Below, one piece after another: positions 9,883 to 59,442 of a DNA stretch of 64,000 bases. The notes beneath the pieces are model-generated. The model did no database searches. It had not been told where the DNA came from and was given only the letters and a program-made list of their open reading frames with translations. Source of the stretch: Sarea resinae (lineage: Eukaryota); assembly GCA_026026165.1 (NCBI GenBank), contig JAPEUD010000032.1, positions 62,001-126,000 of the forward strand. The letters are read 5' to 3'. Each line of letters starts with the position of its first letter. Within the stretch, counting starts at the first letter, position 1. A program made the position numbers and the translations under genes.

Positions 9883-9918
<36 letters not shown>

Positions 9919-9920
9919 TC
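9883..9920. repeat. (CTTT)n microsatellite directly after the GPI8 stop
   Basis: About 9 perfect TCTT units. Confidence 0.95.
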
Positions 9921-9922
9921 AT

Positions 9923-19800: not shown

Positions 19801-21028
19801 CCTTAGCCCCTCTCATGGTGGTCAACGCAAAACAACGACCATGGCGGCGCTCCGGTGAGGATCCCCTTGACTGACGACGGCCCTAACAGCCCAGCTCTCC
19901 TCTCTGCTGCTCTGCGAGGGTCTTCCCAGTTCGTGAGAGTGGGATCTCCACGCCTACTTGCTCGACTCAGAGTAGAGTGATTCTGGAAGATGTCCTATCC
20001 TCGAGCTACTACGAGTACTCTACCCGGTGTCTGTGTATCGGTGTGCCTGTGCCTGTGTGCGTCCTGTCACTGCCTGCAGCCAGCATGACATGTATTGGCA
20101 CAGCACAGCAAAGCACTGCACTGCACTACACTGCACTGGTACTTCGCTGGGTACACGGGAAATCGGGACTGTTCGCCCAATACCATCGAATCTATTCTAT
20201 TTTAGATGCATGCGAGTAACCATCTTGGACGTCGGTGGAGTCTAGCATGTATCATCTATCATCTCTGCTACTGACCGCTCCCCGGTCTGGACGTTGTTCG
20301 CCAGCAGATGCAGTAGTAGCAGCAATCAGGTTGAAGGTGTTCGTTTATCTTTGTCCATGGCCCTCGGCCTGGAAGCGTCTCTCGACTCGGTTTTCTGATT
20401 GTTATAACTCTTCGCGCGCCTTGACGGTGCACCATCACCACCATTATTCCTGCTCATTCTCAAAAATATCATCCGTTGTCAAATCATTGCTGGCTGGTCC
20501 GTTCTCACTAACATCTTCCCTTTTCTCCGAGCCGTTGTGGCTTACCTTCGAAACGTCAGTGCCTTCTTTAGATCCAATTCTCCGCAGAGTCGCACATAGC
20601 ATCAGCCTGCAGCGACCAATCAGCGTTTAGCGTCACCAAGCTCGAGAACTGCATCCAACAAGTCCGCCGCGTCTTACATGGCAATTGTCTGTCTCTACCA
20701 TTGGGCATCATCTTAGCATCCTCTCAAAGGTGGCAGGTGTCGCCGGCAAGAAGCTGGTGCTGCTGCTGGTGGATCCGTATCTGATTGCTGTTGGCCGCTC
20801 CCCACCCTCGTCCACCGCGGGCTGTCATCGAGAGACGGCGGGGAGTCTTGATGGTTAGGAATTCGAACTTCTGCTGAGACTTTTGTATGCGTTCGCCCTT
20901 CTACCTGGATTCGAGACCCAGTGCGCAGCATTTACAATCTTCTCTTTTGATCTTCACGTTCGTTGCGCGCATCTATTCTCGTCACACAACAAGCAATCCT
21001 TCGCCGGTATCTGCTCGCTATTTCCCCG

Positions 21029-40075: not shown

Positions 40076-41113
40076 TTATGATGTCTCCGTCCTTTCATGT
40101 ATATGGGCTCGATTCAACAGTTCATTGCTGAGCATCCGCACAATCTCATCGTTTCCACGTATCTGTGCAGTCTGTACAATATCTTCCGTTATTGGTAGAT
40201 CAGCTCCTTTATAGTAAAGCATCCCTCGTATCATCCATTTTCCATGCACGTTCTGTGCGGCTGCCTTGACCACCCCTTCCGTGTTTGGAAGATCAGCTCC
40301 TCATCGATCAAGCAGCTGGCGCACTCAGTGCTGCCAATGGTCCAAATGGTCCGGTCCAAGGGTCTGGACCAGACCACTGGACCACTGGACCATCGACGGC
40401 ACTGGACGCATTATCTCTACTCCCGTGTAGAACTCCGTCACACGCCTCGACTAAACCCTCGTAAATGAGCCGGCGTTCATTGCAACTGCCAGCATAGACT
40501 CCTCGCTGATTGGAATCTCATCTCCTCGTCGGTCGAGAGGCAAACTGATTATCTCATTCCTTATCTTATTCCGAGCCGCGGTTTTGACTATCTCTTCCGG
40601 GATCGGAGCACCGAATCGAATGAGAAGGAAATCTATGACCTCATTTCCAGACGTGTTTTGTGCAGCTGCCCTCATCACGTTCGCAGTGATTGTCGTGTCA
40701 GGCTGTCTGTCAAGCAGCAGTACAATCGCGCCCTTTCCATGTGTGTTGCTCGCAGCTGCTATCATCGTCTCCTGTGTTATTGGTACACAAGCTTTTTGTC
40801 GCGAAAGAAGCAACTCGATCCCTTCGACATCCCAGTTCCTTGCAGCGGCCGCTAACAGCCATCCAGATGGCATGTCAGGCCCTAGTCGTTCAAGAAGCAG
40901 TCCAATAATTCCACTCAAATTATTATTGCCTGCAGCTGCCTCTATCACACCTTCAGTGATTGGTACATCAGCTCGTTGCTTGAAAATAATTTCTAACATC
41001 CCTTCGCCGCTCCGGTGACTCGCAGCTGCTTTTACCGCCTCTTCTGTTATTGGTAGATCAGCTCCTCGTCGGTCAAGCAGTAGGCTTAAAGTCTCTCTTC
41101 CGGCACACTCGTG
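40076..41113 (-). pseudogene. Detached 3' part of the NACHT/repeat gene (about 9 helical repeats)
   Basis: Continues the ITE-x-V-x-x-AA-x-N repeats in frame from the TSD (HECAGRETLSLLLDRRG). Carries in-frame stops at 40451-40453 (TAG) and 40301-40303 (TGA) plus the 79-bp insertion. Confidence 0.85.
40326..40404. mobile_element. 79-bp non-autonomous hAT mini-element (fused termini only)
   Basis: Begins CAGTGCTGCCAATGGTCCAAATGGTC, identical to the left end of the 41114 element, and ends GGACCATCGACGGCACTG. Flanked by GGCGCACT / GACGCATT (6/8 match, degenerate 8-bp TSD). Confidence 0.9.
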
Positions 41114-44100
41114 CAGTGCTGCCAATGGTCCAAATGGTCTGGTCCGGACCCTTGGACCAGACCACCTGGTGGTCCAAAGGGTCCGGACCATTTGGACCAT
41201 TTGGACCATTTGGACCACTGAGCTTACATAATCAGACGGTAAGTGGTACGTACCGAGCGGTGAATGATTCTGCCGTGGTACGTACCGGTACGTACCGCTC
41301 AATTAGGTACTGTGTTGCGGCAGAATCCTATGTGCCGAGGCAAATCCACTTCTAACATCACCTTTTACTCCTAATATGTGTATATCTTTAAGCAATTAGA
41401 TAACAACAACCATTAATGCTATAAAGCTATAATTTAAAACTCGTAATATTTAGATCTATCCCACTCTATATTTTTAACCATTTTTAATTATCTCCTAAAT
41501 TGAGTGAGACTGAAGCCTCCGCTTTTTTAGAAGTTATACAACTACTAAATCTTTAAAACTAGATAGATCAACAACGATAATTGCTATAGGCCTATAATTT
41601 AAAATATAAGCTCTTTTAAGCTATCTAATGTGTTAGTTTTAATTACAGCTAATTGCAATAGAAATTGGCTAATCCTGAGCCTCTGCAAGCTGTACCCTTT
41701 AAAACCTAGTATATTAGCTTTAAAATAATATATCTCTACAACTAATATTGCTATTAAATTAATATCTATAATTTAGACTCTTCTAGTAGTGTACTTAATG
41801 TATTAAAAGTGCGGTAGAATTAAATTAAAAGATAGTAGAGTTTACCCCCCCCCTTAAGTTACCCCTTTCTTTATAGATACTATCTTAAAAATTTCACATA
41901 ACTCAACAACGAATATTGCTAATGACCTAGGAATTGATTTGTAGACTAAATAGATAGTGCTAAAGAAGACACGCTAGTCAGAAGTAAAAAATTGTGGCCT
42001 ATTATTGCTCTGACCCCCCCCCCTCTATATGCTTATCCTTATTCAACTAATCTTTCAAACATTCAGTTGCGTTAATAGAAGCAACACTTAGAGAGTTTCT
42101 AGCATCAGTAATAGTATGCTTAGAAGAAGAAAAAAGCCTCTCAGTCTCAGCAGACATAGCAGGGATAGAGAGAATATCAATTGCTATTAGGTATAAACAA
42201 GGAAACATCTTTCTCTGTGTGCTTTCTAGCCACCACTCCTGTGCTTTTGTAACTTCTGAAATTGCAGGCATCTTACAATACCTCTCATACTTATCAACAG
42301 TGCTTGTCCTAGCCCTGTTCCGCTGCTTAAAAGCTTTAAGACCTCCTAGAGGTATAACAGATTCAATATCCTGTGCTTTAGGAATTGACACTGCTTTAGA
42401 CTTATAGTCTGTTTCCCAGAAAGTTTTCACCTTCTTCCTCAGGTCCACTAGCCACGTCTTAGGCTAGTTGTGCTCTATGTATTGCCACTTTAGAGCAGGA
42501 TCAAGAACTAAAGCTGCAATATAGATAGAAGTATTATTAGACTTGCTGTAATAATAATCAAGCTTTGCCTATGCTGTTTGAATGCAAGGATAGAGGAATT
42601 TGTCGGCCTTAAAGTCCTTTTTAGCTCTCTCACAATGGTCCAGAAGATAGTCTATAGATTGTAGAACAGTATTGACAGTTGAAGTCCTAGATTTAGAATC
42701 CTTTGTTGCTTCCTAGAATAGGTACAGGAAGTCCCTAATAGAGGCAAGCTTTTCCTAGTCCTAGAAGTGTATAACGTCTTGCTCAAGCTGTTTATGCTGG
42801 CCCTAGAATATCTGGATCCCTCTCCTAATATCAGGATCAAGAGCACTTTTCAACATAGTAAACTAAGAGTTCTAACGAGTTGCATTGTCTCTAGAGACAA
42901 GCTTGCCTCCTGAGACATGTCGAAATGATTGAATACGCTGAGGGGAACGTCTTATAAAGACAACGATATTGTGTAGGCGTCCTAAAGGTCCTAGCTTTCT
43001 CTAATTCTCAAGAAGTGTTGTAGTTTCTGCAGATTCTAAAACTGCTAATTCTTCGCCTTGAACTAGAGCCATAGCCTCTAGGTGTGTTTCAAATAGGAAA
43101 GCTTGTGCTGCAAGGTTGATAATATGTCCTAGACATCGAAGTCTATGCTAGATAGGGTTGTAGGTAATTTCTTCCAAGGTAAGGAGACTTGCAAGTGCTG
43201 AAAGCATAGTATCATTGTTTGACGCATTGTCTAGGACAAAGTAGCCTATCTTAGACATGATCTGATAGTCTTTTAAGACAGTATAGAACGTCTGAGCAAG
43301 GTTGGCTCCTGAATGATCCCCTTCTACCTCCTTTAGAGCAAGAACTGTGTATTGTAACCCCCCTTCTTCCCCTGTCAAATGCGCAGAAATTCCTATTAAA
43401 GACTTGTTGTTTAGGGAAGACCACATATCTACAGTGAAATGAATTGTTGACAATGCTGACTGTAAGGTTTGCTTGACTCTAAGCTGCTTATAGGCGTAGG
43501 TATCTTGGATTTTGCTAGATATTGTTGAATGTGACCTGATAATTGCAGCATTTGCTTCAGGGTTTAATGCCTCAATAAAGGCTCGAAATGCTGGCCATTC
43601 GACAATTGAGAAGGGTAAATTATGCCTTGTAATAAGGCAAATAAGCATCTGCTCTAGCGTTATAGAGTTAAGAGCTTCTTAAAAGATTGCTGTTGTTTGT
43701 TGTCTTTTTTTCCCCTTTTGCTGTTCCTTCCCCCTTCTTATAGCCTCTAGGATATCGGTATGGCTCCTCTTTAGTCTTTTCTCCTGCTCTGATCCTTGCT
43801 CAACAAGCCTGTGTATGCTTGCCAGGTGGTTCCGCGCCTTTGTTGTAGAATTGTAGGATTTTTGACAGTGGATACAACGCTACAATCTAGTCCCTCCTGA
43901 TGCTCTAAGAAGCTCTTCACCTTCGTCGTTTGGTATAGAGTGAGACCAGACCCAAGACGTTGCAGGCCTAGAAGATAGAGTTGCTGAGCTTTGACTCTGA
44001 GTCTCAAGCTGAAAAGGGGTAGGAGAAGATTCAATATCAAAAAGGGGTTCAAGGCTTAAAGCACTGCCTGGAGGGCTTGAAGGTAGTAAAGACATATTGA

Positions 44101-44355
44101 TTTCTGCTTGTAAAGAAGCCTAATAGCATAAGAAACTATAGAATAACAGCCGGAGTTGATAATATCTACAATTCAGGGTGTTTAGACCCCCCCCCCCCCT
44201 TTTTACCCCTTACTTCGCTAAAATTGCAAATGGTCCAAATGGTCCAAATGGTCCAAATGGTCCGCCCAGGACCCTTGGACCAGACCATTGGACCAGACCA
44301 TTTGGACCATTTGGACCATTTGGACCATTGGACCACTGGACCATCGACCGCACTG
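41114..44355 (-). mobile_element. hAT-superfamily DNA transposon (3242 bp), RIP-inactivated
   Basis: Perfect 8-bp TSD CACTCGTG (41106-41113 and 44356-44363). Imperfect 19-bp TIR CAGTGC(T/G)G(C/T)C(A/G)ATGGTCCA, subterminal 9-bp AAATGGTCC arrays, and an AT-rich interior encoding a transposase relic. Confidence 0.95.
42047..44095 (-). pseudogene. hAT transposase pseudogene (BED finger, DDE core, C-terminal dimerisation domain)
   Basis: SWVWSH...CIHC...HLASIH (BED finger), TVDMWSS, LDNASNN, RCLGHIINL, TR*NS*F (ancestral TRWNSWF; stops at 42872 and 42863) and ILSIPAMSAETERLFS. Many TAG/TAA stops. Confidence 0.93.
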
Positions 44356-47300
44356 CACTCGTGAGTAAAAAATGCCTCCACCACCTCTTCTGGGATTCGA
44401 GGATCAGCTCCTTCACAATCGTGAATCAAAGCTGCCTTAACCACCTCTTCTGTGACTGGAAGATCAGCTCCTTGTCGGTCAAGAAGCAGGGTCAATATCA
44501 TCGTTCCAGCAAAGCAGTTACTTGCAGCTGCCTTGACTACCTCCTCTGTAACAGGAATATTATTTGCTTGTCGGTCAAGCAGCAATCGTATTATTTGTTC
44601 TCCTGACCAACTCTGTGCGGCTGCCACCATGACGTCTTCCGTGATTAGCACTTCCGCCCCTCGTAGGTCGAGAAATAGCTCTATTAGCGCCTTCCCCTGT
44701 CTATAGTTGCGTGCAGCTTCTTTTACCACCTCCTCTGTGATTGGTATATCTCCTCGTTCGTCAAGAAGCAGCTCTACTACCTCCTTCCCGTATTGATAGT
44801 TGCGTACAGCTTCTGTCACCACCTCCTCTGTGATTGGTATGTCTGCTCGTTCATCAAGAAGCAGATCTAGAATTTCGGTCGCATCATAATTATAGTTACC
44901 TGCAGCTGCCTTTACCACCGCCGCCGTGATAGAGATATTTTTTCCTCGTTGGTCGAGCAACAGCGTTAAGATATTGATTGGGTTATGCCGGTTACTTGCG
45001 GCTGCCTTAATCACCTCCTCTGTAACAGGAATATCATTTGCTTGTTGGTCAAACAGCAATCTTATTATTAGTTCTCCCGACCAATTCTGTGCGGCTACCA
45101 CCATGACATCTTCCGTGATTTGCATTTCAGCTCCTCGTCGGTCAAGTAGCAGTCTTAGTATCTCTGTTCCAGTGTTGCTATTACTTGCGGCTGCTATTAC
45201 TACCTCCTCCGTGATAGGGATATCATTTCCTCCCCAGTCAAGAAGTAGGGTGAGGATAGAATCTCCATACTGATCTTGCGCAGCTTCCTTCACTACCGCT
45301 TCTGTGATCAGTATGTCCGCCTGTCGCTCGAGGAGTAGATTTGTTATCTCTGTCCCATTCGGATTCTTTGCAGCTGCGTTGAGGACCTTTGTGATAGCCC
45401 GAGCAAATTCAGTACTCCCCTCCCGATCGCTGTAGTCTAATGTCCAAGCACTCAACAAAATCTCCATAACGTCCTTAACGTTTGTTGTGATACCTGCTGC
45501 CACCATTTCAATGTCTGCGTTAGTAATTTGGCTAAATTTATGCACCAACTGCTTGACAATCTTTGTGTGACCTTGAATTGATGCTGCAACGATTGGGTTC
45601 CTTAGTTCGCCCCCTGCTCTGACCTCCACGCCTTCCTCGAGCAACTTCGATACACTACTTTGTAGACCCAGGAATGATGCATAGTAAAGTGGTTTGGGAA
45701 AATCGTCGATGTCAAGAGGATATAATCCTGCCGACAGGGGATCATCGCAGTTATATATCCGAAGCCAGTTGCAGTAACTGGTAGAATAGGTTGGACTGAA
45801 AATCTTATCGATCTGTTTCATCAAGTCTGGGAAGGCGGTAATGAAATTCGTCACTGGTTTGGCGTGTCGATACCAGAATGCCGAGGAATAATGGAGCCAT
45901 GGCATACTCATGACCACCTTCTCGGACAAATCCACGTCGTTGGTTTCGAGAAGACGTTCAAGAGAGGTTTGGGCAGCTGTAGCTTGAGCCACCATGTCTG
46001 AAAATTGATACCACTCGTGGCCAAGATGTGCTGTCGAGCGCTTCGAGATGAGATATTCCTTGACGGAGAAGTGCGCAAGCTTGATGATGATCATTGTCTT
46101 ATCCTCATCAGTATCCTCGTCTGTCTTGTCTTGAACCAGAGTGACCAGCATGCTCGTACAGATTTCCAAAACACTTTCTGGATGTGGAAGAGACACTAGT
46201 CCGGAGAGTTCCTCAAGTCGCAATGGTCGAAGTGCTGAGCTGAGGTATATGAGAATCAAACGTGCCGTCTCATGATCTCTCTCATCTATGTCTCCAAGTG
46301 TTCTTTGGTAAGTCGCCTCCAAAGATTTTGGCAGATTGTTCAAAGCGTGCCGAATTTGACTTTCGGTACGACATTTCCTAAGGCATTCAATTTGCAAAGC
46401 TGCCCAACGGAATCGGCTAGTCCTCAATTAACTCGCTGCTGATCTTTTGGGAACGAGGCTCACCTTTCTCCAGTTGCTGTAAGCTTTTCTTCGATTTCAG
46501 ATTTGATCTCGACTCCCCATCTGCTTAGCTTCTGGTCCTCCTCAATGGACTTCTGTACGTATAGTCTAACATCACCCTCTAGTGATCTCTCAATATCAAC
46601 GGTTGCGGTAGTGATAGAGCTCAACTTAGAAGCGATGTCGGGTTCTCGTCTACTTGTAGCCAGGATATGAACATTCTTTCTCCTTTGGCCTTCCCTGTGA
46701 AGAAGAATGTCGATCCAGCTGAATAATTTTTTTCGTTCTTCCCAGGGGCATTCGTCCAGAGCATCCATAGCAATATACACTTCCCCTCCAAGGCTAGCAA
46801 TGATCTCATCAAGAGCTTGGGTAAGCTCCTTCGGGCTCGGCTCGCTTCCGCATCTTTTGTGCTCCTCCCACAATCGATCGACAGCATTTGGAAGACTCAA
46901 TGTGCTGAGCTGCCTGATAAAAGACCGGATCATGTTTTGAATACTCCGCGTAGCTTCGTCATCAAATTGAAAGTACCAGAATACCAATCTATTTCTTGAA
47001 TCTTTGAGACACAACGCTCGCAGGTTTTCAATTGCGGTCGAGCTGATTTAAATATATGAGCATTGAATGGAACGTCTGGAAATGAAATGGTGATATTCAT
47101 ACCACAAGAATGTCTTTCCACACCCCGCTGATTACGCAGCTATTAGCGTTTTTGGAACTCATAGGCTTTTCGAAACTTACAAACTCCATTCAGCCACAAG
47201 AACTTATACGTTCCTGTGTTCAGCCAATGTTTGTATTCATACGAGTTGAGCAACCACTGTCCAGTATTATCTGTGCGATTCTCCTGCGAGCTGTTGTGTC

Positions 47301-48619
47301 GTGTCGAGAACCTAGCAGAAGATAGCCAGTCTAGCTTCTCAATCTCTTCCTTGGCTGTATCACAGTCAGTATAGAATGAATAATACAACGTAGCAATTCA
47401 TACTCAGTGCCTCCTTCTTCATCGTCAAGATTTCCACGATTACTTTCTCTATCTGGTCTAGAATGGCATCTGCTTGTGCTTCAATCTTGCGGGACTCTTC
47501 TTTTTGACCTTGATTTTTGTGAGAACAGAATTGACCAGGCGTATTCGGCTCACTTACACTGATGCCCAATCAATCCAGTCCAATTATTGACAATGTTCGC
47601 TTTCTGCTCAATGACAGATTTCAGTTTCGTAAGCGGCTGATCCACCATTGACACTATGCCGTGGAGCACACGTTCTTTGTTCTGTCAGTCTAGATCTGGA
47701 TACACATTACCAGGAAGCTCTCACTCATAGGACCAACATTACTCTCCTCCAATACAGTCGCCGTATAATCGAGAATGGCCTCATAGACATCAATGATGAC
47801 ATCCTCAAGTTGCGCCATGTCTTTCAATTTGGAATCCCTGTATTCAATTTCGACCCTGGCATAAAAGACGAGGGTTTGTGCGAGGAACTCAGATGCCTCA
47901 AAGGTAGCATCCAGTCGGTCGTTATCATTCTTGACCATCTATTTGGAATTTAGCTTCAGCATCGGACGAAATGTCAGGCTGACGTACCGCCAGTCCGAGA
48001 GAGACAACGGCCCAGGCACTTGATACTATTTTGGTTCAGCCAAGGCACTCCATCGGAGCCTGAACGTAGAATTACCATGCCCGGTAGGATCAAATTTGAG
48101 AGCAGCATCTATTATACCCTTGAAATCTAATGCAGAGCTCAAAATACTTTTGGCAGTATCACGGACGTTGATTTCACCTTTTCCGTGACGTCTGCTGATC
48201 TTGAAGCTTCCTTTTCGGTATTCGTCGTATTTCTTTTTTGTCTGTTCGACTACTTGCGTGACGATGTCCGTAGCTGATGATGGTTGGCCTGAGGTATTGA
48301 TTTGTTGTTTTTGTAAGATGCCCTTCGAGTTGTCGTCCAACTTCTCAAAGGCAACCTCCCAGAGATCTCTGGGTGCGTCATCTTTTGGAGCCTCAACTCC
48401 ACTGCCCACGGGATCCGCATTTGTAGGAGCGTCACGCGTGGCCCGCTCGCCTTGACCTTGGATACCGATATCTTGACTCGGATCAGGCTCTGGTTGACGC
48501 TGAAAGCCCTGCTCCGATGACGACGTAGCTCGCGCGCCATGCTCCTTGGGGGCCTCTGCAGGTCTCCTTAAATGTTTCCACTTTGCGTGAAGTTTCTCGA
48601 AAATTTTGCTCTCAGGCAT
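44166..48619 (-). CDS. Fungal NLR-like protein: N-terminal helical domain, NACHT NTPase, winged helix, ankyrin and ~35-aa helical repeats; truncated by the hAT insertion
   Basis: DLWEVAFEKL N-terminal region; TGQWLL...WLNGV|SGCGKT (Walker A, assembled across a 25-nt exon at 47103-47127); YIAMDALDEC (Walker B); ILATSR, FRWAALQI, LPKSLEATY, KLAHFSVKEYL and PLYYASFLG; about 11 ITEEVVKAAA repeats. My spliced model has no stop before the transposon. Confidence 0.88.
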
Positions 48620-49099
48620 CGCGAGAAAAAGCGCTATAGCGTCAGGTCATGGGAAAAAGAGATGGACGGGACGCAAGAATGAACGACTTTGTTCGGCGAT
48701 GAGGGGGAGTGCGGCTGAAAGCGAAGCCTCGAAGCATTATCAAGCCCTCTGCCTGCATGAGTGGCGGTGGCAGGACATGTTGTGTGGAGGCACAGCAAGA
48801 CGTATGAGAAGACATGCCCATGTTAGCGGCAGGTTGTCTCAGACAGCAGAGCAGCAGAAGAAGATACTATGATAATACCAATCGATTGACAGTGTCAAAA
48901 GGGCAGCTCATGAAGAAGCAAACAAAGTATTTTTTGGGGATTGGTTGAGGGTTCAGACCATCCCAGACTATTGTGACCGGCGGTGGAAGGCGGCACGCCA
49001 TTTGGACTACTACAGTAGAGCTGATCTGATTAGATCCTAGATCATAGATCATCGAATGTCTACCATAGGTATGTTTCGATAATTCTTGTCCACCTCGCC

Positions 49100-50030
49100 A
49101 TCTCATTCACTAGATTTCAGCGATACCACTAATAATCTCTAATTTTGCCTATAACACAACCAAAATCAAAGGAGATGCTTGGTTCTTTTATGATACTCTT
49201 ATCCTGCCCTAGCTCCTAGCCATAAATCATTATATAGGCCGATTAGTGGCGACAAACTCTAAAAATACGCCGGAACACGTCAAATTACTGTGTTTATTGC
49301 CTTATTTTAGCATGGCTAGGAAACAGCTATTAACCTCCGCAAATTCGCACTCAACTAGGGGCCTCTAGGGTCGCCAGAATTTAGGAGACAGCAGTCCTTA
49401 GTATCACTAATAATCACTATTTTGCACCTCTATAGTATTCTCGCTCGCTGCCTGCCTATATATGCTTAAGATTTTGCACCTCCTAGCATACTTCTAGATC
49501 ACTATATACTCGGAATAATCTAGCAGGGCCTAAAAAGTTTTTAATATTCTAGGATATAGAGAGAACATTCTTATAGCTAGTTTCTTATTATCTAATTTCT
49601 TATTATCTAGTATAAAGTTAAGATAGTTCTAAGATACTTATATAGTTAGAGATTATATACTGCTTGTAGTATAGTCTCCTTAGAGATAGTTACTGTATTA
49701 GCTATTACTTTATATAGCTTGTGTACCTTAATACAGACCTGAATGATGCAAATTCAATGATTCTATTTATCACAAATAGAAGATATATGCTAATCCTAAA
49801 TTGTTTTCAAGATACAGAGCTTCTCCCTTAATTCTAGTGGTGGTATAGGCAAACCAGTAGAATTTGCTAATATCTAGTTCATTGAGAGTAGGTGGCAGGC
49901 GAAATCAGCGAGGTGTCAAGAATTAGCAAACAGTGAGTAAATAGATATACAAAAACTGTAATTTCTCAACTATAGAACGATTAGATGTCCTAAGCATTGT
50001 CCCAAATCCTAATTCCCTAGCTGCCACTCC
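49100..50030. other. AT-rich, TpA-enriched segment, probably a RIP-degraded repeat relic
   Basis: Abrupt drop in GC content, abundant TAG/CTA/TATA and no ORFs of 60 aa or more. The family is not recognisable. Confidence 0.55.
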
Positions 50031-50301: not shown

Positions 50302-52685
50302 TCAAGCCGAGTGAACACCACCTCCCGCCCAACCCCTCCCGGTCCCACGCATCTCCACCTCCCTAAATCCGCCCAATTCCATCTCTACCTCTCGATCCTC
50401 GCCACCACCACCACCACCACCACCTGCATCATACTCATCGAAATCACCCTCCACAAAGATCTCATGCCCACTGCCCTCCCTCACAAACCAGGCGACCGCG
50501 GCCCCGAGCGCAGCAACAGCAGCGGTGCCCCACCAAGCGCCGCCGACGCCCCAACCGACACCCTCGTCGCCTGCCTCCCGCGAAGCCTTCAAGCCGGCGC
50601 CGAACCAGCGGCCCACGACGACGGGCCCCAGCGTTCGCGCGACCGACGACACGGACTGCCCGAGGCCGTGCACGGTGCCCAGCACGCTCGGGTGCGGCGA
50701 GCAGTTGTTCAGCAGGATGATGCTGGTGGGGAGGCTGAAGGTGCGCGCGCCGACCTGCAGGCCGACGATGGCCACCAGGCCCGCCCAGACGAGGAAGCCG
50801 GATGCCGCGCCCGGTGCGGGCGTCGAGGAGGGTAGGAATCCTATTAGAGGTGCTAGCGCGTAGGCGGGGATGAAGAAGGGGAGTGAGAGCCGGTAGGACA
50901 GCGTGGTGCCGAGGAGAGCGTGCAGGGGTGGGTAGAAGAGGAGCTGCAGCGGGAGACCGAGGATGCCGAGGAGCGAGGTGGCGAGTCCTACTAGGGGTGG
51001 AGGGAGGGCCAGACCGCCCGAAAGCGGGGAGGAGTTCGTGGGGCGCGGGGTGGAGAGGAAGAGGAGAATTAGGTTGTTGAATGCGCTTTTTGGTATTTGT
51101 TAGCTACGTTGTGTGCGGCAGGGAGATATTGTGACTAGGAGGATTTTCAAGGGTGGTTCGAGGTTGGGGATATGAGGAAAGGGGACTAAAAGGGCTTCAC
51201 GCACCCCATATGGAAATCAAAAAATGCCTGCGCAAGCAACGTGCAAAGAACATTCTTCGTCCAGATTCTCCTTAGAGGAAGCTGGGGCCTCCTTCGCGGT
51301 TTCTCGTTCAAGATGGGCGAGACCAGCGGCGCGTCTTCGGGGATCGACGACGTCTGCAGCGCCGAAGTGCCGCTGGAGTTATTTGGGTAGTTAGAGGTGG
51401 CAGGCTTAGGCTCGTCGAGCTCGAGCTGAGTGTAGGCGTGTGACGAGGTCGTTTGCTGGTAGGATGGCGTGGTCGGGTAGGAAGACGAGGAAGGGTCGAG
51501 ACGGGACAGGAGTTGGCTGACGCGTTGGGTGATGTAGATGCCGGAGTCGAAGTGATATTTGCGAGATTCAAGAGTCTGGCTAAATATTAGCTTTCATTCG
51601 TTGAATGAAGGGTGCTTGATGGGTTCTTTGATTCCTGGTCTGGAATGTTTTAGGGGACTTACTTCTTCCAATGCTAGATAGACACTTGTTGCGGTTAGGA
51701 ACAGCATAATACTGCATATGATACTCGGGAGAGCGTAGGGGAACGCGCTCATCCATCGAATGCCACTTTTACCGCCGAAAGCCGAATTGGGACCGAAAAG
51801 ACTTGGATAGTTGGTCGTTGGATTGACGAGGAGGCCGCCCATCACTTTGCGTAGGTCAGCCTCCGATAGAGGATCAGAGAGGGGAAGAAATACCTGGTCC
51901 GAACAGAGCAGCTATGTTGAAGGATACAGGAAGGATCAGGAAAGCTCGAGATTGGTATCTGGGACAAGGATAAGTATAGAGGTATGCAAAGGTTCTAGAG
52001 AGAGCAGACTTCTTTTCTCTGATAATCTCCGCTATCATAGTCCGACTACAGGAAAAATCAGCTTTACGATTCCCAAGCTCTAATCTACGAACACCAAAAC
52101 TCACATGATCCCAACGGTGCCATTGATTGCCCCCCCAAATGTTCGAAATATCACAGCCTGTGCAAACGTGCGCGAAAATCCCAGTCCGATGCACGACAAG
52201 CCCGTGCCCACCAGCCCAATGAGCAAAACACGTTTTCTGCCTCCCCATCTCGCATCCGCAACCCTCCCCCACAAGATCGCCGTCGCAAATTGCGCCGCCG
52301 TGAAACTGCCCTGCAGGACTCCGGCCTGCCAGCTGATCTTCGAGTCCGGCAGCGTCTCATCGAACGATTTGAGCTGATAGAACATGTACGCCTGTAGGCT
52401 CGCGACCTGCAGGAAATCAAAAAGCCGCGAGAGAAACAACAAGGCCAGTTGACCCTTCCGAGGCAACGAGAGCCATGTCACGGGGGTTTGCTTGGGCGCC
52501 TTGCCCTCGGCGTCGGCGGCGGGGGGAGGGCTGCTGGGGATTTCCAGAATCTCGTCACGCCCGGACATGCTGCGTCTCAGCTGGAGAGAATCATGGCGCC
52601 GGCTGAGGCCATAGTCGGTGCTGATCTTTCGGGAGGTAGAACGAGAATGCTTGAATGACGATGCATTCTGCCCAGCGCCGTCCAT
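50302..52685 (-). CDS. MFS transporter (DHA1/TetA-like, ZIFL-type)
   Basis: TPVTWLSLPRKGQLALLFLSRLFDF, motif A (WGRVADARWGGRKRVLL), RTMIAEI, YQSRAFLILP, FPYALP, RIWTKNV and LNNCSPHPSVLGTVHGLGQSVSSVARTLGP. About 6 exons; the exons I translated are in frame. Confidence 0.92.
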
Positions 52686-53762
52686 CTGCGGAAGACAATG
52701 ATATAGTCCTTCTTGAAAAAGTTGGCTTTCAGCTACCTGAGTTAGCAGTGACCACAGGAAACCCGCTAACGGTACAGAGCTCTGGCTGGAGACGCGTAGA
52801 CAAAAAGGCGAAGCCCAAAGAACGAAAGGCAAAAGGCCAAAAGACAAATCAAGACATGAGGCGCGAAAACGGTGTCCCCAACCGACCACAGTAGAGCAGC
52901 CCTTTTCGACACCTTTGACGTCGCCGGCGGACGTGCAGGGGTCCGGTCGCTGCCCGCCGTCTCTACCTCGAATGCTACCATTATTTGCATAACTTATCAA
53001 AAATGGGATGCGACGGCGTCATCGCCATGCGAGACGAGTCTCCACTTGCCCTTAGCACTTTTAGGGCGCGGCGGGCCCCTGGCGGCGCCACGAACGCCAA
53101 GAATGCCACGAATGCCAAGACCGCCAAGCGGACAACGCGCGGCGCCGTCGCGCGTCAGACCCAAATGCCATGCTCCACCTATCAATGTATCAATGAAGCC
53201 TATGAGACTTTCGATTTTCGAGCGGACGTGGACGTCAGGCAGACCGCGTCAGCACCTGTAGAGGGTTTGCTTGGCGATAATGTTCGGAGTCTCCACGCTC
53301 TCGTGAGAGGTCCAAAGAAGTACGTAAAATATGCTGTACTCGTCTGAGGTGTCAAGCTTTTCCGATGATTGCCCATTGGGAACGGGATCACTTAGAGGGA
53401 GTGATGCACGTCGATACCAGCGATTACAGATTATTGACGGGGCGTGCCCTGTACGACTGTGTCGTGTGTAGCCACCGGGGACTCGAACAATGTTTGAATT
53501 CTTCCCCGGCGTCTGCGGACAGAAGACAGAACCTCTGAACTTGGAAACCACAGTGCCAACGACAAGAATCAGAATCAATCGATATCCTATTATACTTTTT
53601 ATTGCGTGTGAACCCGGGATTTGGGTATATCTCATCGTCTATGTAAGAAGTAAACACCTCAGTTTTCCCACCTAGATTGATACCATGCAAATGCAACAAT
53701 GCCCCCCCTCCCAAAGAGACGAGTGAAATATTCGTGCCAGAAATGCATGCACACGACCACCG

Positions 53763-55781
53763 CTAGAACGATACCAACAGGACAGCCACCACTCCCGCCA
53801 ACGCCACAGCCCTGATAATCCATTTCCACATCAACCAGCTCGTCCCCGCCGAAGTAGTCACATCGTCTGTATCTTCTTCAACCTGTATATCAGGAACACC
53901 ATCACCGTTAGTGCCCTGTATTTCGTCGGCCTTCGTATCGGTTTCTGGCTCCCCTACCTGCTCCTCTTCTGGCTCCCCCTCCGAGGCCGGTGGGGGATTT
54001 GTTAGAACGTCGTCAAACTCTAGCTGTGTCGCAACGCCGCAATCTCCGTCGTCACAGAATGCACTCAGCGATTCGGAGGGCACAAAGACAGGGACGATGG
54101 ATGAATTGCGAAGGGACTTTCCATAGACATCCACAGCTTCCGCGAAGACAAAGCCAAGTGGTCCCGTTCTCTCATCATCGCCGACATCGGTGTACTCGGT
54201 CTCGAAACCCTGCTTGCGGACATAGGTTCCAGGGCTAAAGGGGCCTGTGCGGTTCTCCGCGGTCCAGAAACGCCACCAGCGGACCTCCGTAGCGCCATTC
54301 CATGAGGTATAGAAGGAAGTTGCGGTGTCTGGTTTCCGGTCGTGGGCGTAGGCGTAGATGGCCGGAGAGTCGTGCGGCTCTGCAGTCCAGTTGAACCTAA
54401 AGGCACGATAGTTCATCGTCCATTGGGTTTTGAGTGAAGCAAAGAAGATGGGCGGGCCATCGGGGAGGTTCTCCGATACGGAAGGGAGGTTGCCCCAGTT
54501 GAGGAAGGCATGGGAATTAGGGAGGAGTTGGAAATTGCCTTGGGATGAAGATAGGAAAGGTCTATTATCCACCTCCACATCGGCATTTCCGGGGTCAGAG
54601 ACAGGGAACGTTGGGGAGGCGTAGGAAACGAGAAGCGTGGCCGTTTTATGGATGTGATCGAGAGCGATGATTTGACCTGTAGAAAAAGGAGCGGTGTTGT
54701 TGAAGCCATTGGAGGCGTTGTTGAAGAGGGTCAGAATGGTCGTTGTGGCGTTTGATTTGGACCGGTGCAAGCGCGCGTGGTGCTGTTGTGAGAAAGAGAA
54801 ATTGATAAGGTGGAAATCAGAGTTTGCGCCATTGAGGCGCCAGATTATGGAGCCGTCCTTGCCCGAGATGAGGTAGACGCACGATGTGTGGCGCGAGGAG
54901 ATCAGATAATCCCCGTCTGCGTTCTTGTCAATTGAATTGATGTGGAAGTAGTCCCATGGCGTGCCCTTGCCCAGGCCGTCTCCAGATGTGTCAGTCGAGC
55001 CGGGAAGAGTGTAACTGTCAGACGGATCGACGTGGTCGAGTGAGCGCCATTCGAAAATCACCTCGCTAGTTGTGACATTAACTTCTTGAAAGATGCTCTC
55101 CATGATCCAACCTAGCCCGCTCTTCACACCAAACGCGCTGAGGTCGTATTGCCGTTGCCGGTAAACCGTCATGAGGGCTGTTTCGCCGCCATTGGCGAGA
55201 TTGAACTCGTGCATGTCGCTGGGTGGAACTCCTCCACCGGCTTGCACGGAGTTCACGATTCGATAATGATTATCCATGATCACCCCATGCCCTCGCGCAT
55301 AGCCCTTTTGCTGATTCCCTTGGAAGAAACATAGGTGGTTGGCGCCTCGATAGTCGCAAACGTGGATGCCATGAACATTGGCAGCGCCGGAGACACCCCA
55401 ACCGCTCCAGACGAGATCCTAGAGACTTCAGCACGACCGTTCCCATGTAAGCTCCAGAGCATTTCGTACCCCATTATTGTCGTAGATGTACGGCCCCGGG
55501 TTTTCCAACTCGTATGGTGCTATGAAGATATACCCCGGAGTGACCAGGTCAGCATCGTTGAGTGTGACATCGAGAATAGGTGCGCTCAAATCAGGTCTCT
55601 AGGATAAGGAACGTTAGATCGGCACAAAATCATTTCATCTGTTCGTTCCACTCACAGAACGAAAGAATGTCACTTCCTGGGCCCATGTCCGGGTTATGAG
55701 GACATCGATAACGATAAGAAATATAGGAAAGCCCCAGAAGAAGGGACGGAATAAAGGAGAGACATGAATATGAAAAGTCAT
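53763..55781 (-). CDS. Arylsulfotransferase (ASST, PAPS-independent), with signal peptide and C-terminal membrane anchor
   Basis: Exons ~55781-55656, 55598-55470, 55418-53763. Hydrophobic N-terminus ending TWAQ, then FRSRPDLSAP, PGYIFIAP, GPYIYDNNG, DMHEF, WDYFHINSI, ISSRH, QQHHAR, SSQGNFQ, NYRAFR and SWNGATEV. An acidic linker precedes the terminal TM (WIIRAVALAGVVAVLLVSF). Confidence 0.9.
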
Positions 55782-56858
55782 GGATCAAAGCATCAGGGCA
55801 GATAGCCGCGAGAATTGCAAGATCGAATCAGTCCCAGCACGGGACCTTTCTATGCTCTGCCTCCGATATGAACAGGCAGCACGATTACAGCCAAAGACAG
55901 CACTTTTTGGTCAAATCATCCTAGCGCCAAGCCAAGTCGTCGAGTCGCCGACGCGTCCCTAAGGTGCATATCTCGGGGAAGATCGAAGGAGACGAAGGGC
56001 AATTGTTGGGTTGTTTCGATCCGGTCAGTAGCAATCAAGGGTTCGAAGTGGATCAGGCCTATTAGCGCTGCTAACAGGAAGAGGCTCTTGGCACCTGTAC
56101 CACTCGTACAGCCGTCAATCATCGAGGCGGATTGTCGAGACTGCGTCATGCCCACCATTACCCCTGGGCCCTTGCTGTACGGATTAGCCTGTCTCGACAA
56201 GCACGGGGCCGTGGGCCGCGTCAGTGGGCTACTCAGAGTATGTACTGCGAATACTTCAGTAAGTGGAGACCCGCGAGAAAGAAAAGCCAAATGAGAATGG
56301 ATCGTAAAGTGAATTGGCATAGCGGGTGGGCTGCGGGGGTTGCCTGATACCACATGTTAGTACTTGGTACAGTAATAGAGAGAGGTGCAGGGTAACGGCC
56401 ACTAAGCGCTACAAGCCACGACATGCCCTGAACCCGACATCCGCGTTAAATCCGTAAAGGTCAGTGATCAACAGGGGAAGTGCGCCATCGCCGCACTTGG
56501 TAGGAACCAGCAACCATGGCGGCAGGGGAGGTGGGGGGCCACCCACGGTCCACCGTCGCAAAGACTCTCCTGGAATGGCGCATGGTCGAACAAGATAGGA
56601 GATTGCTAGAGTAGTACGTAGGATATTTGCGCGAGGTGGACCTGTCCACATGATGTCTACAAAGTACAAAAAAAACCAGATCTGTTCTGCCGCCCAGTAC
56701 GCCCCCCAGTCGTCTAGGATAAGTGGTAGACAGACATGCACGAAATGAAATCCCGTAGGCAAGCAATGTATGCCGTCCCAGATCCGACCTGTCACACCGA
56801 AAATGCCGCTTCCAGAGAGCGCAAAGACAAAAAAGAGAAACGAAAAGAAAAGTTGAGA

Positions 56859-57888
56859 TCAGGCAGAGAAGCTCTTGTAAGCCCTGGAGAGAGCATATAG
56901 ACCACCGAGTAGAATGCCACCGTAGAGAGCGAAGCGCAAAGCTGCATTGCACATTTGCATCCTATTCCGCCATCGACATCGTTCCTTGAAGCCGGCCGTA
57001 TCGTTGCAGCGTGGGAACTTGACGCACGGAATGTCCTCACCGAGGAAGTCACAGAGTGGTCCCCAGCCGTCACTGATCTGGTACTCCAGCAGGTTCTCTG
57101 GCGGTACCATGTCGCGGACCTCCTTGTAGTGTCGTTTGTAGATTTCCTTGCCTTTATTCGGAAAATCGCCTTCGAAGAATGTGTCGAAGAACTTCTTCAG
57201 CATGGGGTAGTACATGCTTGCACCCCAACTGACGTACGAAGCAATGCGAAGTTCAGGATCGCATACGCGCCACCAGACTGTTTTCATAGTAGATCTGTTT
57301 CTTCGGTCAGATATCTCCGGATGTAAGTTTTAGACATTGCGCATCTGGCTCTTACGCGTGCCATGAATCCAAATCCCGACCAATCAAGACAACTTTTGCG
57401 TTGGGATATGCTTCAATGAGCTCCTTAGCAAATGCAGAAGCTGGCCAGTCGCAGAGAGCCTAGAGCAAGGCTAGTCAGCGTTGAAGTAGAAGCCATCGCA
57501 TCAGAGAAGAGGTACCTGGCAGTGACCTAGCAGCTGGTCCCAATCCTCTCGTGTGAACTTCCCAATACCGTCATATTTTGCAGCAAATGCATCTTGCCAC
57601 ATTAGACAGTCCGGAGGATTCTCAACGCTGGCGTTCATCATGTGGTACGTGTCAACATAACCCAGTTGGCGCAGGGCGGCACGCATTGCTGTTGGACGAG
57701 GCTTTGTATCAGCGGACGATTCCACAGCTCGAGGATCCAATTCACGTACATGTCGTTCCGGTCCTGCCCAGTCCTAAGACAAGCACTTTCATCGGTACCA
57801 CCCGATGGCATTCTCGGCGATTGATGTTGGTATCACTTGTGAAGATGTCCGTGATCGGTTTGGAAGTATAGTTTCGAGAGAAAGCCAT
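56859..57888 (-). CDS. P-loop sulfotransferase (Sulfotransfer_4-like family), C-terminally anchored
   Basis: Spliced protein MAFSRN...MKVLVLGLGRTGTTSMRAALRQLGY..TYHM, DWDQLLGHCQALCDWP, YPNAKVVL..RDLDSW, HYKEVR..VPPENLLEY..DGWGPLCDFLG..P...FPRCN, ending in hydrophobic ALRFALYGGILLGGLYAL. Four exons. Confidence 0.88.
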
Positions 57889-59442
57889 GCTCAACAAAAG
57901 TGTAATAAATTGCTCTGGTGTCTAAGATCTCGAAGCTTTGGCTATTGAAAGGAGTGACGACTGAATTGAAAGAAAGATGGATATAACGATTGACAGATTG
58001 ATAAATTGACAGTATGATGGTTTGACAGCTTTTGACAGGGCTTTGACAGCGGCCTAAAAAAGCTGAGCACTTTGACTTAAGAGACGGCCCCAATTGCCAA
58101 GAGAGCCCGATAAGGCTTATCGTTGCCATTTTCGACGGCCACTGCGAGCACCTACGTAACGACGTGCGCAGTCGTTCTTGGCGCGAGACATTTCTTAAAC
58201 CTGTAGCTACCGAGATAACATGTGGGGTCAGTAGTTTCGGACCCTCGAACCATGTTCGGTATTCCTGCACTCGTCAGCGAGAGACGTACGCTGATCAAGC
58301 GGCCTCTATTCCTAGACAACGGAGAGACGCAAACCAAGAACTATCCTTCAAGTTCCTTGGCAAAGGTCGAGAATTCGCAACTGTCAGAGGCTGAGATGTT
58401 CATGTGGAGAAAGTTTCAGGGGATGATATTGAAACGAGTCAGGCGGACGGCTTGGGATAAAGCGACAAACTTGACAACGGTAGACCATGAGAGGTGACGG
58501 CGGTACGCCAGAGAGCTAGAGACTAGTGCCCTAGCTCTTAGTGGGTGAACCATGAACCGGACCCCATATGGGTGAAATTGGAATGAAAAGGAGGAACACC
58601 GAAGCAGTCTTCCGATTGTGGGTGCCCTCGATCCGATCTGTCAGTTTAGTCATATCAATGCCCGGCCACGAAGGTTGCCAGCCATTATTTCTCGTCCACA
58701 AGCGATTGTTGGTCCTCGTATGATCTGTCATGTTGGAGGCCCAAGAAAGAAGGAGTGTATTCGTACTCGTCGCAGCCGCCTGCTGCTATCAGTGCGGACC
58801 GAGGCATGTAAAGGAATTGGTTATCCCGAGTTTCATAAGGGAGACGTCTGACATCTCGTCGTTGCATTATCGTCCCGTCCGTCGGTGGCCTTCGACACTG
58901 TCTTCGGTGGCCGTGCGGTACGAAGTTACACAAACGTCCGGCATGGTAGAGCTGCAGCACCCTCTTGCTTTCTGTGCGAGCAAATGAGGGCAAAGTCGCA
59001 CAGAGAAGACGGTGATATGAGAGGAGAAAGAAAAGGCTCAGAGAGCAAAGGGCGCGGTGGGATTCTTATATCCCCACACTCCCCGTATCGATGTTCGTAT
59101 AACGATAGTTGAGGCCTGCATGGCGTGCTTCCTTGGCCTGTTCTGGTGTGGTTGCCTGGCTTCAATGCTGCCTTAGAGCGGCACTGCATCAGCGGAAAAA
59201 GGTGTGGCCGGGCAGACAGGAAGACAGTCATTTCGGAAAAACATTGCGCCAGAGGCCCCTTCACGTGTAGGCGGCATTCCGACCGATAGAGGGGCAATTG
59301 ACCTTGAATGCAGCTCATCATCACGAATCCAAGCCCCACCTACGTCAAAGACAACAGAGTCTCCACGACCGCCCCTGGAGAGTTCCTACGATATTCTTAT
59401 CCGAGGCGCCACTGTAGTACCACGTTCACCACAACACTCATC

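What the first reader, a model, noticed from the sequence alone, without database searches (positions are those of the whole stretch)
50302..57888. Candidate membrane-spanning two-step sulfate relay: sulfotransferase + arylsulfotransferase + MFS transporter in one co-oriented cluster
Seen in sequence: three adjacent minus-strand genes about 1.1 kb apart encode a P-loop sulfotransferase (GLGRTGT, no signal peptide, C-terminal anchor), an ASST (signal peptide plus C-terminal TM) and an MFS transporter. No PKS/NRPS/terpene core gene lies in the window. Established: these are two unrelated sulfotransferase chemistries. P-loop enzymes use PAPS, while ASSTs move sulfate from an aryl sulfate via a sulfo-His. 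In Streptomyces caprazamycin biosynthesis, PAPS-dependent Cpz8 sulfates a small shuttle that the ASST Cpz4 then uses. Inference: a cytosol-facing enzyme charges a small carrier, the MFS moves it across a membrane, and the lumenal or surface ASST sulfates a secreted metabolite, glycan or wall component without a PAPS transporter. I do not know of such a relay being characterised in fungi, and a coreless cluster like this would be missed by standard BGC finders.
Basis: partly seen in the sequence, partly recalled or inferred. Interest (0 to 1): 0.82.

Follow-up and report, generated by a model that had tools for sequence, protein, structure and literature searches.

The report
Conserved fungal sulfate-relay gene trio
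Many filamentous fungi keep three genes side by side (two different sulfate-transfer enzymes that appear to face opposite sides of a membrane, plus a transporter), which suggests an undescribed way to pass sulfate from the cytosol to secreted or surface molecules.

Summary
Three intact, co-oriented genes lie 1,077 nt apart: a PF17784 sulfotransferase (ST), a PF14269 arylsulfotransferase (ASST) and an MFS transporter.

The linkage is conserved, not local. The same order recurs in 5 of 7 related fungal loci with long flanks, while flanking genes differ between classes. Consecutive accessions link pairs or trios in about 25 more species. Two sister-clade ASST loci lack both partners, and in Trichoderma ST sits directly beside MFS.

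The ASST model's best PDB match is Cpz4 itself. An ST orthologue matches SgdX2 and Cpz8. Catalytic motifs are retained. Hydropathy across orthologues supports opposite faces: ST tail-anchored in the cytosol, ASST a glycosylated lumenal or surface protein with a YxxΦ-type tail. A PacC-like motif, TGCCAAGA, sits in all three promoters here and in 12 of 18 promoters overall (background about 5%).

The best reading (about 0.55) is a Cpz8/Cpz4-like two-step relay split by a membrane. The carrier, the acceptor, the MFS cargo and the direction of flux are all unshown, and published expression data are only partly concordant. Ten literature searches found no description. Verdict: new variant of a known kind, testable in A. 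nidulans.

The parts
56859..57888 (-). PF17784 (Cpz8/SgdX2-fold) PAPS-type sulfotransferase gene; exons 57888-57750, 57688-57516, 57459-57356, 57294-56859; 283 aa
   Evidence: 67-72% identical to orthologues; orthologue model matches SgdX2 8Y9P and Cpz8 9KF2
57754..57774 (-). P-loop (5'-PSB-type) motif GLGRTGT, aa 39-45
   Evidence: G41 R42 T43 G44 T45 invariant in 30 of 30 aligned orthologues
56889..56945 (-). ST C-terminal hydrophobic helix (probable tail anchor), aa 256-274
   Evidence: 90 of 104 full-length orthologues have one, median tail 6 aa; low hydrophobic moment
53763..55781 (-). PF14269 arylsulfotransferase (Cpz4-like beta-propeller) gene; exons 55781-55656, 55598-55470, 55418-53763; 636 aa
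   Evidence: model pLDDT 81; best Foldseek hits Cpz4 9KF6/9KF4, TMt 0.92/0.90, E 1e-40
55683..55751 (-). ASST N-terminal hydrophobic helix (signal peptide or signal anchor), aa 11-33
   Evidence: 61 of 67 orthologues with an intact N-terminus have an h-region
54780..54944 (-). ASST active-site stretch H244-x-N246, R261, H298 (candidate sulfo-carrier His); H155 lies upstream
   Evidence: all invariant in 40 of 40; motifs in 116-120 of 120 homologues; role assigned by motif correspondence to residues named
53766..53819 (-). ASST C-terminal hydrophobic segment aa 619-636, ending at the stop (TM without tail, or GPI-like signal)
50302..52685 (-). MFS transporter gene (YCR023C-like by database names; weak match to human MFSD10); exons 52685-52105, 52045-52010, 51958-51894, 51844-51663, 51575-51205, 51085-50302; 672 aa
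   Evidence: orthologue P0250 vs MFSD10 6S4M E 1e-4
58095..58102 (+). TGCCAAGA (PacC-like) site upstream of ST
56086..56093 (-). TGCCAAGA (PacC-like) site upstream of ASST
53113..53120 (+). TGCCAAGA (PacC-like) site upstream of MFS

Best explanation
The trio is a conserved filamentous-ascomycete sulfation module that works like the Streptomyces Cpz8/Cpz4 two-step relay but is split by a membrane. (1) The tail-anchored ST faces the cytosol and uses PAPS to sulfate a small endogenous phenolic or enolic carrier [fold and motifs shown; activity and carrier inferred]. (2) The MFS moves the sulfated anion into the late secretory lumen, vacuole or outside [inferred from linkage and family only]. (3) The membrane-anchored, glycosylated ASST takes the sulfo group on His298 and passes it to an acceptor in that compartment, such as a secreted metabolite, glycoside, or wall or membrane component [active site shown by conservation; compartment predicted; acceptor unknown]. 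The genes probably share pH-linked (PacC-type) control [motif shown; factor inferred]. That the three genes serve one sulfate-transfer process is about 0.85 likely; this particular forward route is about 0.55.
For: Trio in the same order and orientation in L007, L008, L014, L015, L016. Compatible partial trios in L010, L011, L013, L019, whose contigs end too soon to show the third gene. Flanks are shared only between the two Eurotiales-like loci L007 and L015, never across classes. Consecutive locus tags or accessions: Cirrosporium trio; A. granulosus and A. unguis (ST beside a merged ASST+MFS model); ST+ASST in A. affinis, A. melleus, A. egyptiacus, Arachnomyces, Xylogone; ASST+MFS in P. angulare, P. 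capsulatum, P. roqueforti, A. nanangensis, A. fumigatus, A. nidulans; ST+MFS in Helicocarpus and three Trichoderma. Xylogone pairs ST with an ASST from a different branch, a possible second pairing. Best structural matches are Cpz4 and SgdX2/Cpz8. Topology census: ST 0 of 104 with an N-terminal hydrophobic segment, 90 of 104 with a C-terminal helix; ASST 61 of 67 with an h-region, 54 of 67 with a C-terminal TM, median 5 sequons. ASST tails carry [RKSHNT]Yxx[LVI] in 72 of 89 versus 10 in shuffles. TGCCAAGA in 12 of 18 promoters versus 13 of 294 background tiles and 6 of 122 other upstream regions; 3 of 8 held-out promoters.
Against: L017 and L018 (sister ASST clade, 48-50% identical, 10 kb upstream and 4-7 kb downstream held) have neither partner. 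In Helicocarpus and Trichoderma ST and MFS are directly adjacent, and I saw no ASST beside them, so ST+MFS may be the core. In Trichoderma sp. CBMAI-0711 the two are 14 tags apart. In P. chrysogenum the gene next to ASST is an APH-domain gene. Expression is only partly concordant: A. nidulans AN0723 (probable ST, identity inferred) is +7 log2 in vosA and velB mutants while the ASST AN10116 is +1.3 and unchanged. In A. fumigatus the ASST rises in the pacC mutant but the MFS and AFUA_1G13990 are not listed. No carrier-making enzyme is in the cluster and no type III PKS was found in this genome (which cannot show absence). A second close MFS (51% to this one) and a second ASST lie unlinked elsewhere in this genome. 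The motif also occurs upstream of unlinked ASSTs (L017, L018, the second ASST here). This ASST lacks the conserved tail.
Confidence: 0.55

Rival explanations
1. Conjugate-and-export module: ST sulfates phenolic compounds (own or environmental) and the MFS exports or sequesters the conjugate as the end product. The ASST is an accessory that recycles or redistributes the sulfate outside and can be dropped.
For: ST+MFS directly adjacent in Helicocarpus and Trichoderma. The MFS is nearest to MFSD10 and NorA-type exporters. Cpz8 sulfates various phenols (PMC11677658 passage). The sister ASST clade stands without partners.
Against: The ASST sits between the other two across Eurotiomycete- and Dothideomycete-like loci and shares the promoter motif. 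ST is 55-86% conserved and was found at one locus in this genome (lower bound), which fits a fixed endogenous substrate better than broad detoxification.
Confidence: 0.2
2. Membrane or lipid route: ST sulfates a lipophilic substrate on the ER or lipid-droplet face. ASST and ST work on the same pool, but the MFS moves something else (the desulfated carrier back in, or the final product), so it is not the forward shuttle.
For: Two A. oryzae PF17784 proteins (LdrG, LdrH) are lipid-droplet associated and a double deletion could not be obtained (bioRxiv 2022.11.24.517872 passages). Whether they are this orthologue is unknown, because their gene ids are in supplements I could not see. The MFS cargo is wholly inferred.
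Against: LdrG binds through amphipathic helices, while the C-terminal helix of this ST family is hydrophobic with low moment (median H 0.73, moment 0.14). A charged sulfate ester needs a carrier to cross a membrane.
Confidence: 0.12
3. Reverse relay for sulfur scavenging: the surface ASST lifts sulfate from environmental aryl sulfates onto a carrier, the MFS imports it, and ST runs backwards to regenerate PAPS from PAP.
For: The anatomy does not fix direction. ASSTs are ping-pong enzymes. The tail-less ASST here and the GPI-like ends in the sister clade suggest surface exposure.
Against: No CYS-3/MetR-type palindrome (pattern recalled) in 18 of 18 promoters. The genome has ordinary sulfatase-family genes. 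The bacterial homologues act biosynthetically.
Confidence: 0.08
4. Inherited neighbourhood with no shared function.
For: The ASST tree roughly follows species relationships, so order could be ancestral. Expression is discordant in places.
Against: Flanking genes are not kept across classes while the trio is. Two unrelated sulfotransferase chemistries sit together, as in bacterial cassettes L187 and L118. The promoters share a motif.
Confidence: 0.05

Closest known systems
Streptomyces caprazamycin two-step sulfation (Cpz6 type III PKS, Cpz8, Cpz4; PDB 9KF1/9KF2, 9KF4/9KF6)
   Same: The same two folds: ASST model vs Cpz4 TMt 0.92, 30% identity; ST orthologue vs Cpz8 TMt 0.82-0.84, 32-33% identity. 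Both are genomically clustered. A similar ASST - type III PKS - ST cassette was seen in Streptomyces locus L187.
   Different: The fungal cluster has no PKS and no acceptor pathway. Both enzymes carry membrane anchors on opposite predicted faces, and an MFS is a fixed member (0 of 80 bacterial PF17784 loci had this MFS type, 2 of 80 had an ASST). It is conserved across fungal classes rather than pathway-specific. The shuttle mechanism of the Cpz system is recalled (Tang et al. 2013, cited in a PMC12142624 passage), not read.
SgdX2 (8Y9P) and schistosome oxamniquine-activating sulfotransferases (PF17784)
   Same: Family and fold of the ST.
   Different: No ASST or MFS partner is known to me; the fungal ST adds a conserved N-terminal extension and a C-terminal anchor.
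Periplasmic bacterial ASSTs (E. coli 3ELQ/3ETS; D. hafniense)
   Same: Extracytoplasmic beta-propeller with the His / His-x-Asn / Arg / His centre.
   Different: Only 14% identity, TM about 0.48. Natural donors are mostly unknown, and no linked PAPS enzyme or transporter was described in the passages read.
Characterised fungal sulfotransferases (FgSULT1, HwSULT, AsSULT) and A. oryzae LdrG/LdrH
   Same: Fungal sulfation enzymes; LdrG/H share PF17784.
   Different: The survey behind HwSULT and AsSULT used PF00685, a family not found in this genome. That paper has 0 occurrences of PF17784 or ASST. LdrG/H have no reported enzymology in the passages read.

Membership tests
PF17784 Sulfotransfer_4 (Cpz8/SgdX2 type) | HMM score above curated cut-off | tested here: met
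   87 and 45 bits on exons vs cut-off 22.8; 245 bits for orthologue P0121
PF17784 Sulfotransfer_4 (Cpz8/SgdX2 type) | P-loop GxGRTGT and downstream R-x-x-x-x-W-x-x-S PAP-binding segment, same fold | tested here: met
   (fold tested on orthologue P0121, 67% identical to the window ST); motif roles recalled
PF17784 Sulfotransfer_4 (Cpz8/SgdX2 type) | PAPS-dependent sulfuryl transfer | not testable with these tools
   needs an assay
ASST (EC 2.8.2.22; PF14269) | HMM score and beta-propeller fold | tested here: met
   195 bits vs cut-off 27; Cpz4 TMt 0.92
ASST (EC 2.8.2.22; PF14269) | His, His-x-Asn, Arg and carrier His conserved | tested here: met
   H155, H244, N246, R261, H298 invariant in 40 of 40 and aligned to Cpz4; mapping to E. 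coli numbering is by motif, not by a residue-level superposition
ASST (EC 2.8.2.22; PF14269) | Ping-pong transfer via sulfo-His | not testable with these tools
   needs an assay
Cpz8/Cpz4 two-step relay | Clustered PAPS-type ST and ASST | tested here: met
Cpz8/Cpz4 two-step relay | Co-clustered type III PKS that makes the shuttle | tested here: not met
   none in the window or in flanks shared across loci; PF00195 search of this genome found 0 candidates (cannot show absence)
Cpz8/Cpz4 two-step relay | ST product serves as ASST donor | not testable with these tools
   needs a coupled assay
   by hydropathy census and sequons only; no localisation data
   two PF08449 loci found; one matches SLC35B1 structures, the other has no PDB match; counts are lower bounds
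PacC regulon | GCCARG sites and PacC-dependent expression | tested here: inconclusive
   sites enriched (37 vs 20.9 shuffled, max 32; consensus from PMC3618310); only the ASST appears in an A. fumigatus pacC-mutant list, and it is up; the site also fits the loose VosA element CCXXGG only partly

The most novel reading that the evidence does not exclude
Filamentous ascomycetes have a general, pH-regulated system for sulfating molecules in the secretory lumen or at the cell surface without a PAPS transporter or Golgi sulfotransferases. A recycled small-molecule sulfate shuttle is charged by a tail-anchored ST, moved by a dedicated MFS and discharged by a type I membrane ASST onto glycans, lipids or secreted proteins. 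This would be an unrecognised eukaryotic surface modification pathway built from bacterial antibiotic-tailoring parts.
Probability: 0.25. Interest if true: 0.9.

Novelty: new variant of a known kind. Interest (0 to 1): 0.66.

Why it matters
The natural donors and acceptors of ASSTs are mostly unknown (PMC13426309 passages), and fungal sulfation is described as largely unexplored (PMC11677658). This trio gives a fungal ASST a genetically linked candidate donor source and transporter. It is present in model species (A. nidulans AN10116 and neighbours; A. fumigatus AFUA_1G13970/13980), so three knockouts and one metabolomics run can test it. If it holds, it extends the Cpz8/Cpz4 logic to a membrane-crossing eukaryotic pathway that cluster finders keyed on PKS or NRPS cores would not flag, and it reannotates a large family now labelled 'NAD dependent epimerase/dehydratase'.

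Tried and rejected
No RNA holder was listed for the window, so splicing, the ASST 3' end and expression could not be checked on reads.

Earlier scan findings: nothing by sequence, words or place.

The five CTGTCAA copies upstream of ST are not conserved in other ST promoters, so I rejected them as the shared signal.

Choline-O-sulfate synthesis was considered as the ST's role. One search gave no link; it remains untested.

Extra recurrent neighbours such as glycosyltransferases: none across classes.

Merged ASST+MFS database models (33 in hand) and one ST+ASST model (P0099) are treated as evidence of adjacency, not as real fusions. A. nidulans AN0724 was later split into two genes, and L007 has a stop and a gap between the genes. 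A true fusion would still be topologically possible.

Gene-id searches in main texts gave only false leads. Supplements of PMC5423626 had no hits. The N. crassa sulfur-starvation supplements had no sulfotransferase annotation, which is uninformative without NCU ids.

The first tree held a wrong-frame row for L187 and was redone. Both are quick trees without bootstrap and say nothing on donor or direction of transfer.

The ESM Atlas only returned PF17784 clusters. No complex prediction was run, because binding is not claimed.


Full report
OBSERVATION. The region is fungal, with short GT..AG introns. Three minus-strand genes splice cleanly: ST 57888-56859 (283 aa), ASST 55781-53763 (636 aa), MFS 52685-50302 (672 aa), each gap 1,077 nt. 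Pfam gives PF17784, PF14269 and PF07690. A 636-aa database protein is 100% identical over the exon queried and is labelled Sarea resinae. None of 44 scanned frames (of 184 of at least 100 aa) holds a PKS, NRPS or terpene domain. The neighbours are a CCDC124 gene upstream and an ankyrin/NPHP3_N gene with transposase remnants downstream. In this genome the searches found one PF17784 locus, two ASST loci and one further close MFS. All counts are lower bounds, and the paralogues have no ST, ASST or MFS partner within about 9 kb.

IS THE LINKAGE REAL? An ASST alignment fetched 79 metagenome loci, which I searched for ST and MFS by tblastn and HMM. Fourteen are at least 43% identical. Five carry ST>ASST>MFS co-oriented (L007, L008, L014, L015, L016). 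One shows ST+ASST and three show ASST+MFS, with the contig ending before the third gene. Three are too short (L009, L012, L031). Two with long flanks (L017, L018) have neither partner and lie between a zinc-knuckle and a caleosin gene. The other 65 loci (29-39%, many short or bacterial-like) have neither. By best hit the trio loci are Eurotiales-like (L007, L015) and Dothideomycete-like (L008, L014, L016) (class names from my knowledge). Flanks match only between L007 and L015, so the trio is kept while its surroundings change.

Locus tags and accessions agree. Cirrosporium has three consecutive tags in the same order. A. granulosus and A. unguis have ST next to a merged ASST+MFS model. A. wentii, Rasamsonia and Annulohypoxylon have two members one tag apart, the middle gene unchecked. 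ST+ASST are consecutive in A. affinis, A. melleus, A. egyptiacus, Arachnomyces and Xylogone. ASST+MFS are consecutive in three Penicillium species, A. nanangensis, A. awamori, A. tubingensis, A. fumigatus and A. nidulans. ST+MFS are directly adjacent in Helicocarpus and T. gracile, T. citrinoviride and T. parareesei. These pairs were picked from overlapping hit lists and are not a census. Misses: Trichoderma sp. CBMAI-0711 has ST and MFS 14 tags apart; the Phlyctema ST and MFS hits sit on contigs of different length; P. chrysogenum has an APH-domain gene beside the ASST. A quick tree groups the window's ASST with Cirrosporium and Eurotiomycete proteins (SH-like 98), puts L017/L018 in a separate nearby clade, and places the Xylogone ASST on a more distant branch.

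WHAT THE ENZYMES ARE. By sequence the ASST's only PDB relatives are 9KF4 and 9KF6 (E 6e-51). Its model (pLDDT 81) matches them at TMt 0.90-0.92, and they are Cpz4 of caprazamycin synthesis; E. coli ASST follows at about 0.48. H155, H244-x-N246, R261 and H298 are invariant in 40 of 40 aligned proteins and their motifs occur in 116-120 of 120 homologues. They correspond by motif to the centre described for the E. coli and D. hafniense enzymes. The ST orthologue P0121 (67% identical to the window ST) matches SgdX2, Cpz8 (9KF1/9KF2) and schistosome enzymes by sequence and fold. So the fungal pair are homologues of both halves of the known relay. In bacteria the pairing is uncommon: 2 of 80 PF17784 loci (48 of them at least 15 kb) had an ASST, one with a type III PKS and one with an APS-kinase gene between the two, and 0 of 80 had this MFS type. 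The MFS is only weakly placed (MFSD10, E 1e-4).

TOPOLOGY. Of 104 full-length ST orthologues (of 120 listed), none has an N-terminal hydrophobic segment and 90 have a C-terminal one a median 6 aa from the end, hydrophobic rather than amphipathic. This indicates a tail anchor with the catalytic domain in the cytosol; the window's own helix is on the weak side (0.59 vs median 0.73). Of 67 ASSTs with intact N-termini (of 120), 61 have an h-region, 54 a C-terminal TM, and all at least 3 sequons. Tails carry a [RKSHNT]Yxx[LVI] motif in 72 of 89, against 10 in shuffles (maximum 19), which resembles post-Golgi sorting signals (recalled). The window's ASST stops at its TM. Reading past the stop gives an open 112-codon frame with a similar Y motif, so a recent truncation, read-through or a GPI-like end are all possible.

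REGULATION. De novo counting on 18 promoters from 6 loci (starts approximated from HMM hits) ranked GCCAAGA (14 of 18, 2.4 expected) and CTTGGCA (13 of 18, 2.6 expected) first. The merged 8-mer TGCCAAGA is in 12 of 18, against 13 of 294 background tiles and 6 of 122 other upstream regions. It is in 3 of 8 held-out promoters, one of which is a close relative of a discovery locus. Three of its four copies in the window are in the three promoters, though four copies overall is not above chance. Either 7-mer was upstream of 6 of 19 non-cluster ASSTs, including L017 and L018. It contains the PacC consensus GCCARG (PMC3618310 passage). In A. fumigatus the ASST is up in a pacC mutant (log2 1.9, 0.3, 2.7, 1.5), while the MFS and AFUA_1G13990 are not listed. 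In A. nidulans conidia AN10116 (ASST) and AN0723 (its neighbour on the ST side, identity inferred from gene order) are both VosA-peak genes that rise in wetA and vosA mutants, but by +1.1/+1.3 versus +2.4/+7.0. VosA peaks cover 1,734 genes. In a blood-culture set 13980 and 13990 fall together in one contrast only. Co-regulation is thus suggested, not established.

MECHANISM. Shown: families, folds, active-site residues, conserved order, shared motif. Predicted: opposite faces. Inferred: ST charges a small carrier from PAPS, the MFS moves the anion across a membrane, and the ASST discharges it onto a lumenal or surface acceptor. An extracytosolic ASST needs a sulfated donor, and the two genes that travel with it could supply and deliver one. 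I put shared function at about 0.85 and this forward route at 0.55. Rivals are conjugate-and-export (0.20), a lipid-face route with another MFS cargo (0.12), reverse scavenging (0.08) and chance (0.05). The carrier is unknown, since no type III PKS was found. The claim of no PAPS transporter is inconclusive.

NOVELTY. It works like Cpz8/Cpz4 but is not a member, because the shuttle-making PKS is absent from the cluster and a transporter and anchors are added. Ten searches of the open-access library returned no description of this cluster; subscription journals are not covered. A 2026 ASST review and a 2026 ASST preprint have 0 hits for 'fung'.

WHAT I READ. PMC11677658: first part, passages, first half of the Discussion. 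PMC12135136 and bioRxiv 10.64898/2026.10.08.757636: first part, plus passages for the latter. PMC13426309, PMC12142624, PMC3618310, PMC3598899, bioRxiv 2022.03.28.486018 and 2022.11.24.517872: passages. PMC7885118 and PMC4199764: passages and supplement rows. PMC6106085, PMC4551469, PMC5423626, PMC8550094: supplement searches only. Tang et al. 2013: not read (recalled). The closed supplements of bioRxiv 2022.11.24.517872 would tell whether LdrG or LdrH is this ST.

VERDICT. A real, widely conserved and apparently undescribed three-gene module with a plausible but unproven trans-membrane relay. New variant of a known kind; interest 0.66.

Noticed in passing
window 57990-58049 (- strand): Five CTGTCAA copies within 60 nt, 100-160 nt upstream of the ST start. 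Not conserved in other ST promoters. TGTCA is a TALE-homeodomain-type site (recalled), and a Homeobox_KN gene lies just past the window end (L107:3-1328).
   Followed up: partly
window 53424-53765 (- strand): The ASST stop follows its TM directly, and an open 112-codon frame continues in phase with a Y-x-x-I motif like orthologue tails. Possible recent truncation or read-through.
   Followed up: partly
P0242, P0246, P0449 and others: 33 Aspergillus database models merge ASST and MFS into 1,133-1,372 aa proteins that keep the ASST TM; P0099 merges ST and ASST. Probably annotation merges, but a real ASST-MFS fusion is topologically possible.
   Followed up: partly
L017:10001-11550, L018:10001-11608; P0070, P0073, P0085: A sister ASST clade without ST or MFS neighbours in the two loci seen; P0070, P0073 and P0085 end in a tail-less, GPI-like hydrophobic C-terminus.
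   Followed up: partly
P0207 and P0525 (Xylogone): A Leotiomycete has a Eurotiales-like ST (78% to Helicocarpus) next to an ASST from a distant branch: possible independent pairing or transfer.
   Followed up: no
L118:7069-10639; L187:7340-10636: Actinobacterial cassettes ASST - APS kinase/inositol-monophosphatase fusion - ST (Actinokineospora) and ASST - type III PKS - ST (Streptomyces).
   Followed up: partly
window 40451-49900: Low-GC stretch (41-47%) with DUF7104/ankyrin and NPHP3_N frames, a hAT dimerisation remnant, and an AT-rich tract near 49300-50000 that looks RIP-decayed.
   Followed up: no
window 9699-10880, 14765-16804, 20951-22597, 28493-30619: Four long frames (394-709 aa) with no Pfam match.
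   Followed up: no
G000:C65:169601-171370: A second MFS of the same subfamily (51% to the cluster MFS), between a lysophospholipase and a pyruvate kinase gene, without the promoter motif.
   Followed up: partly
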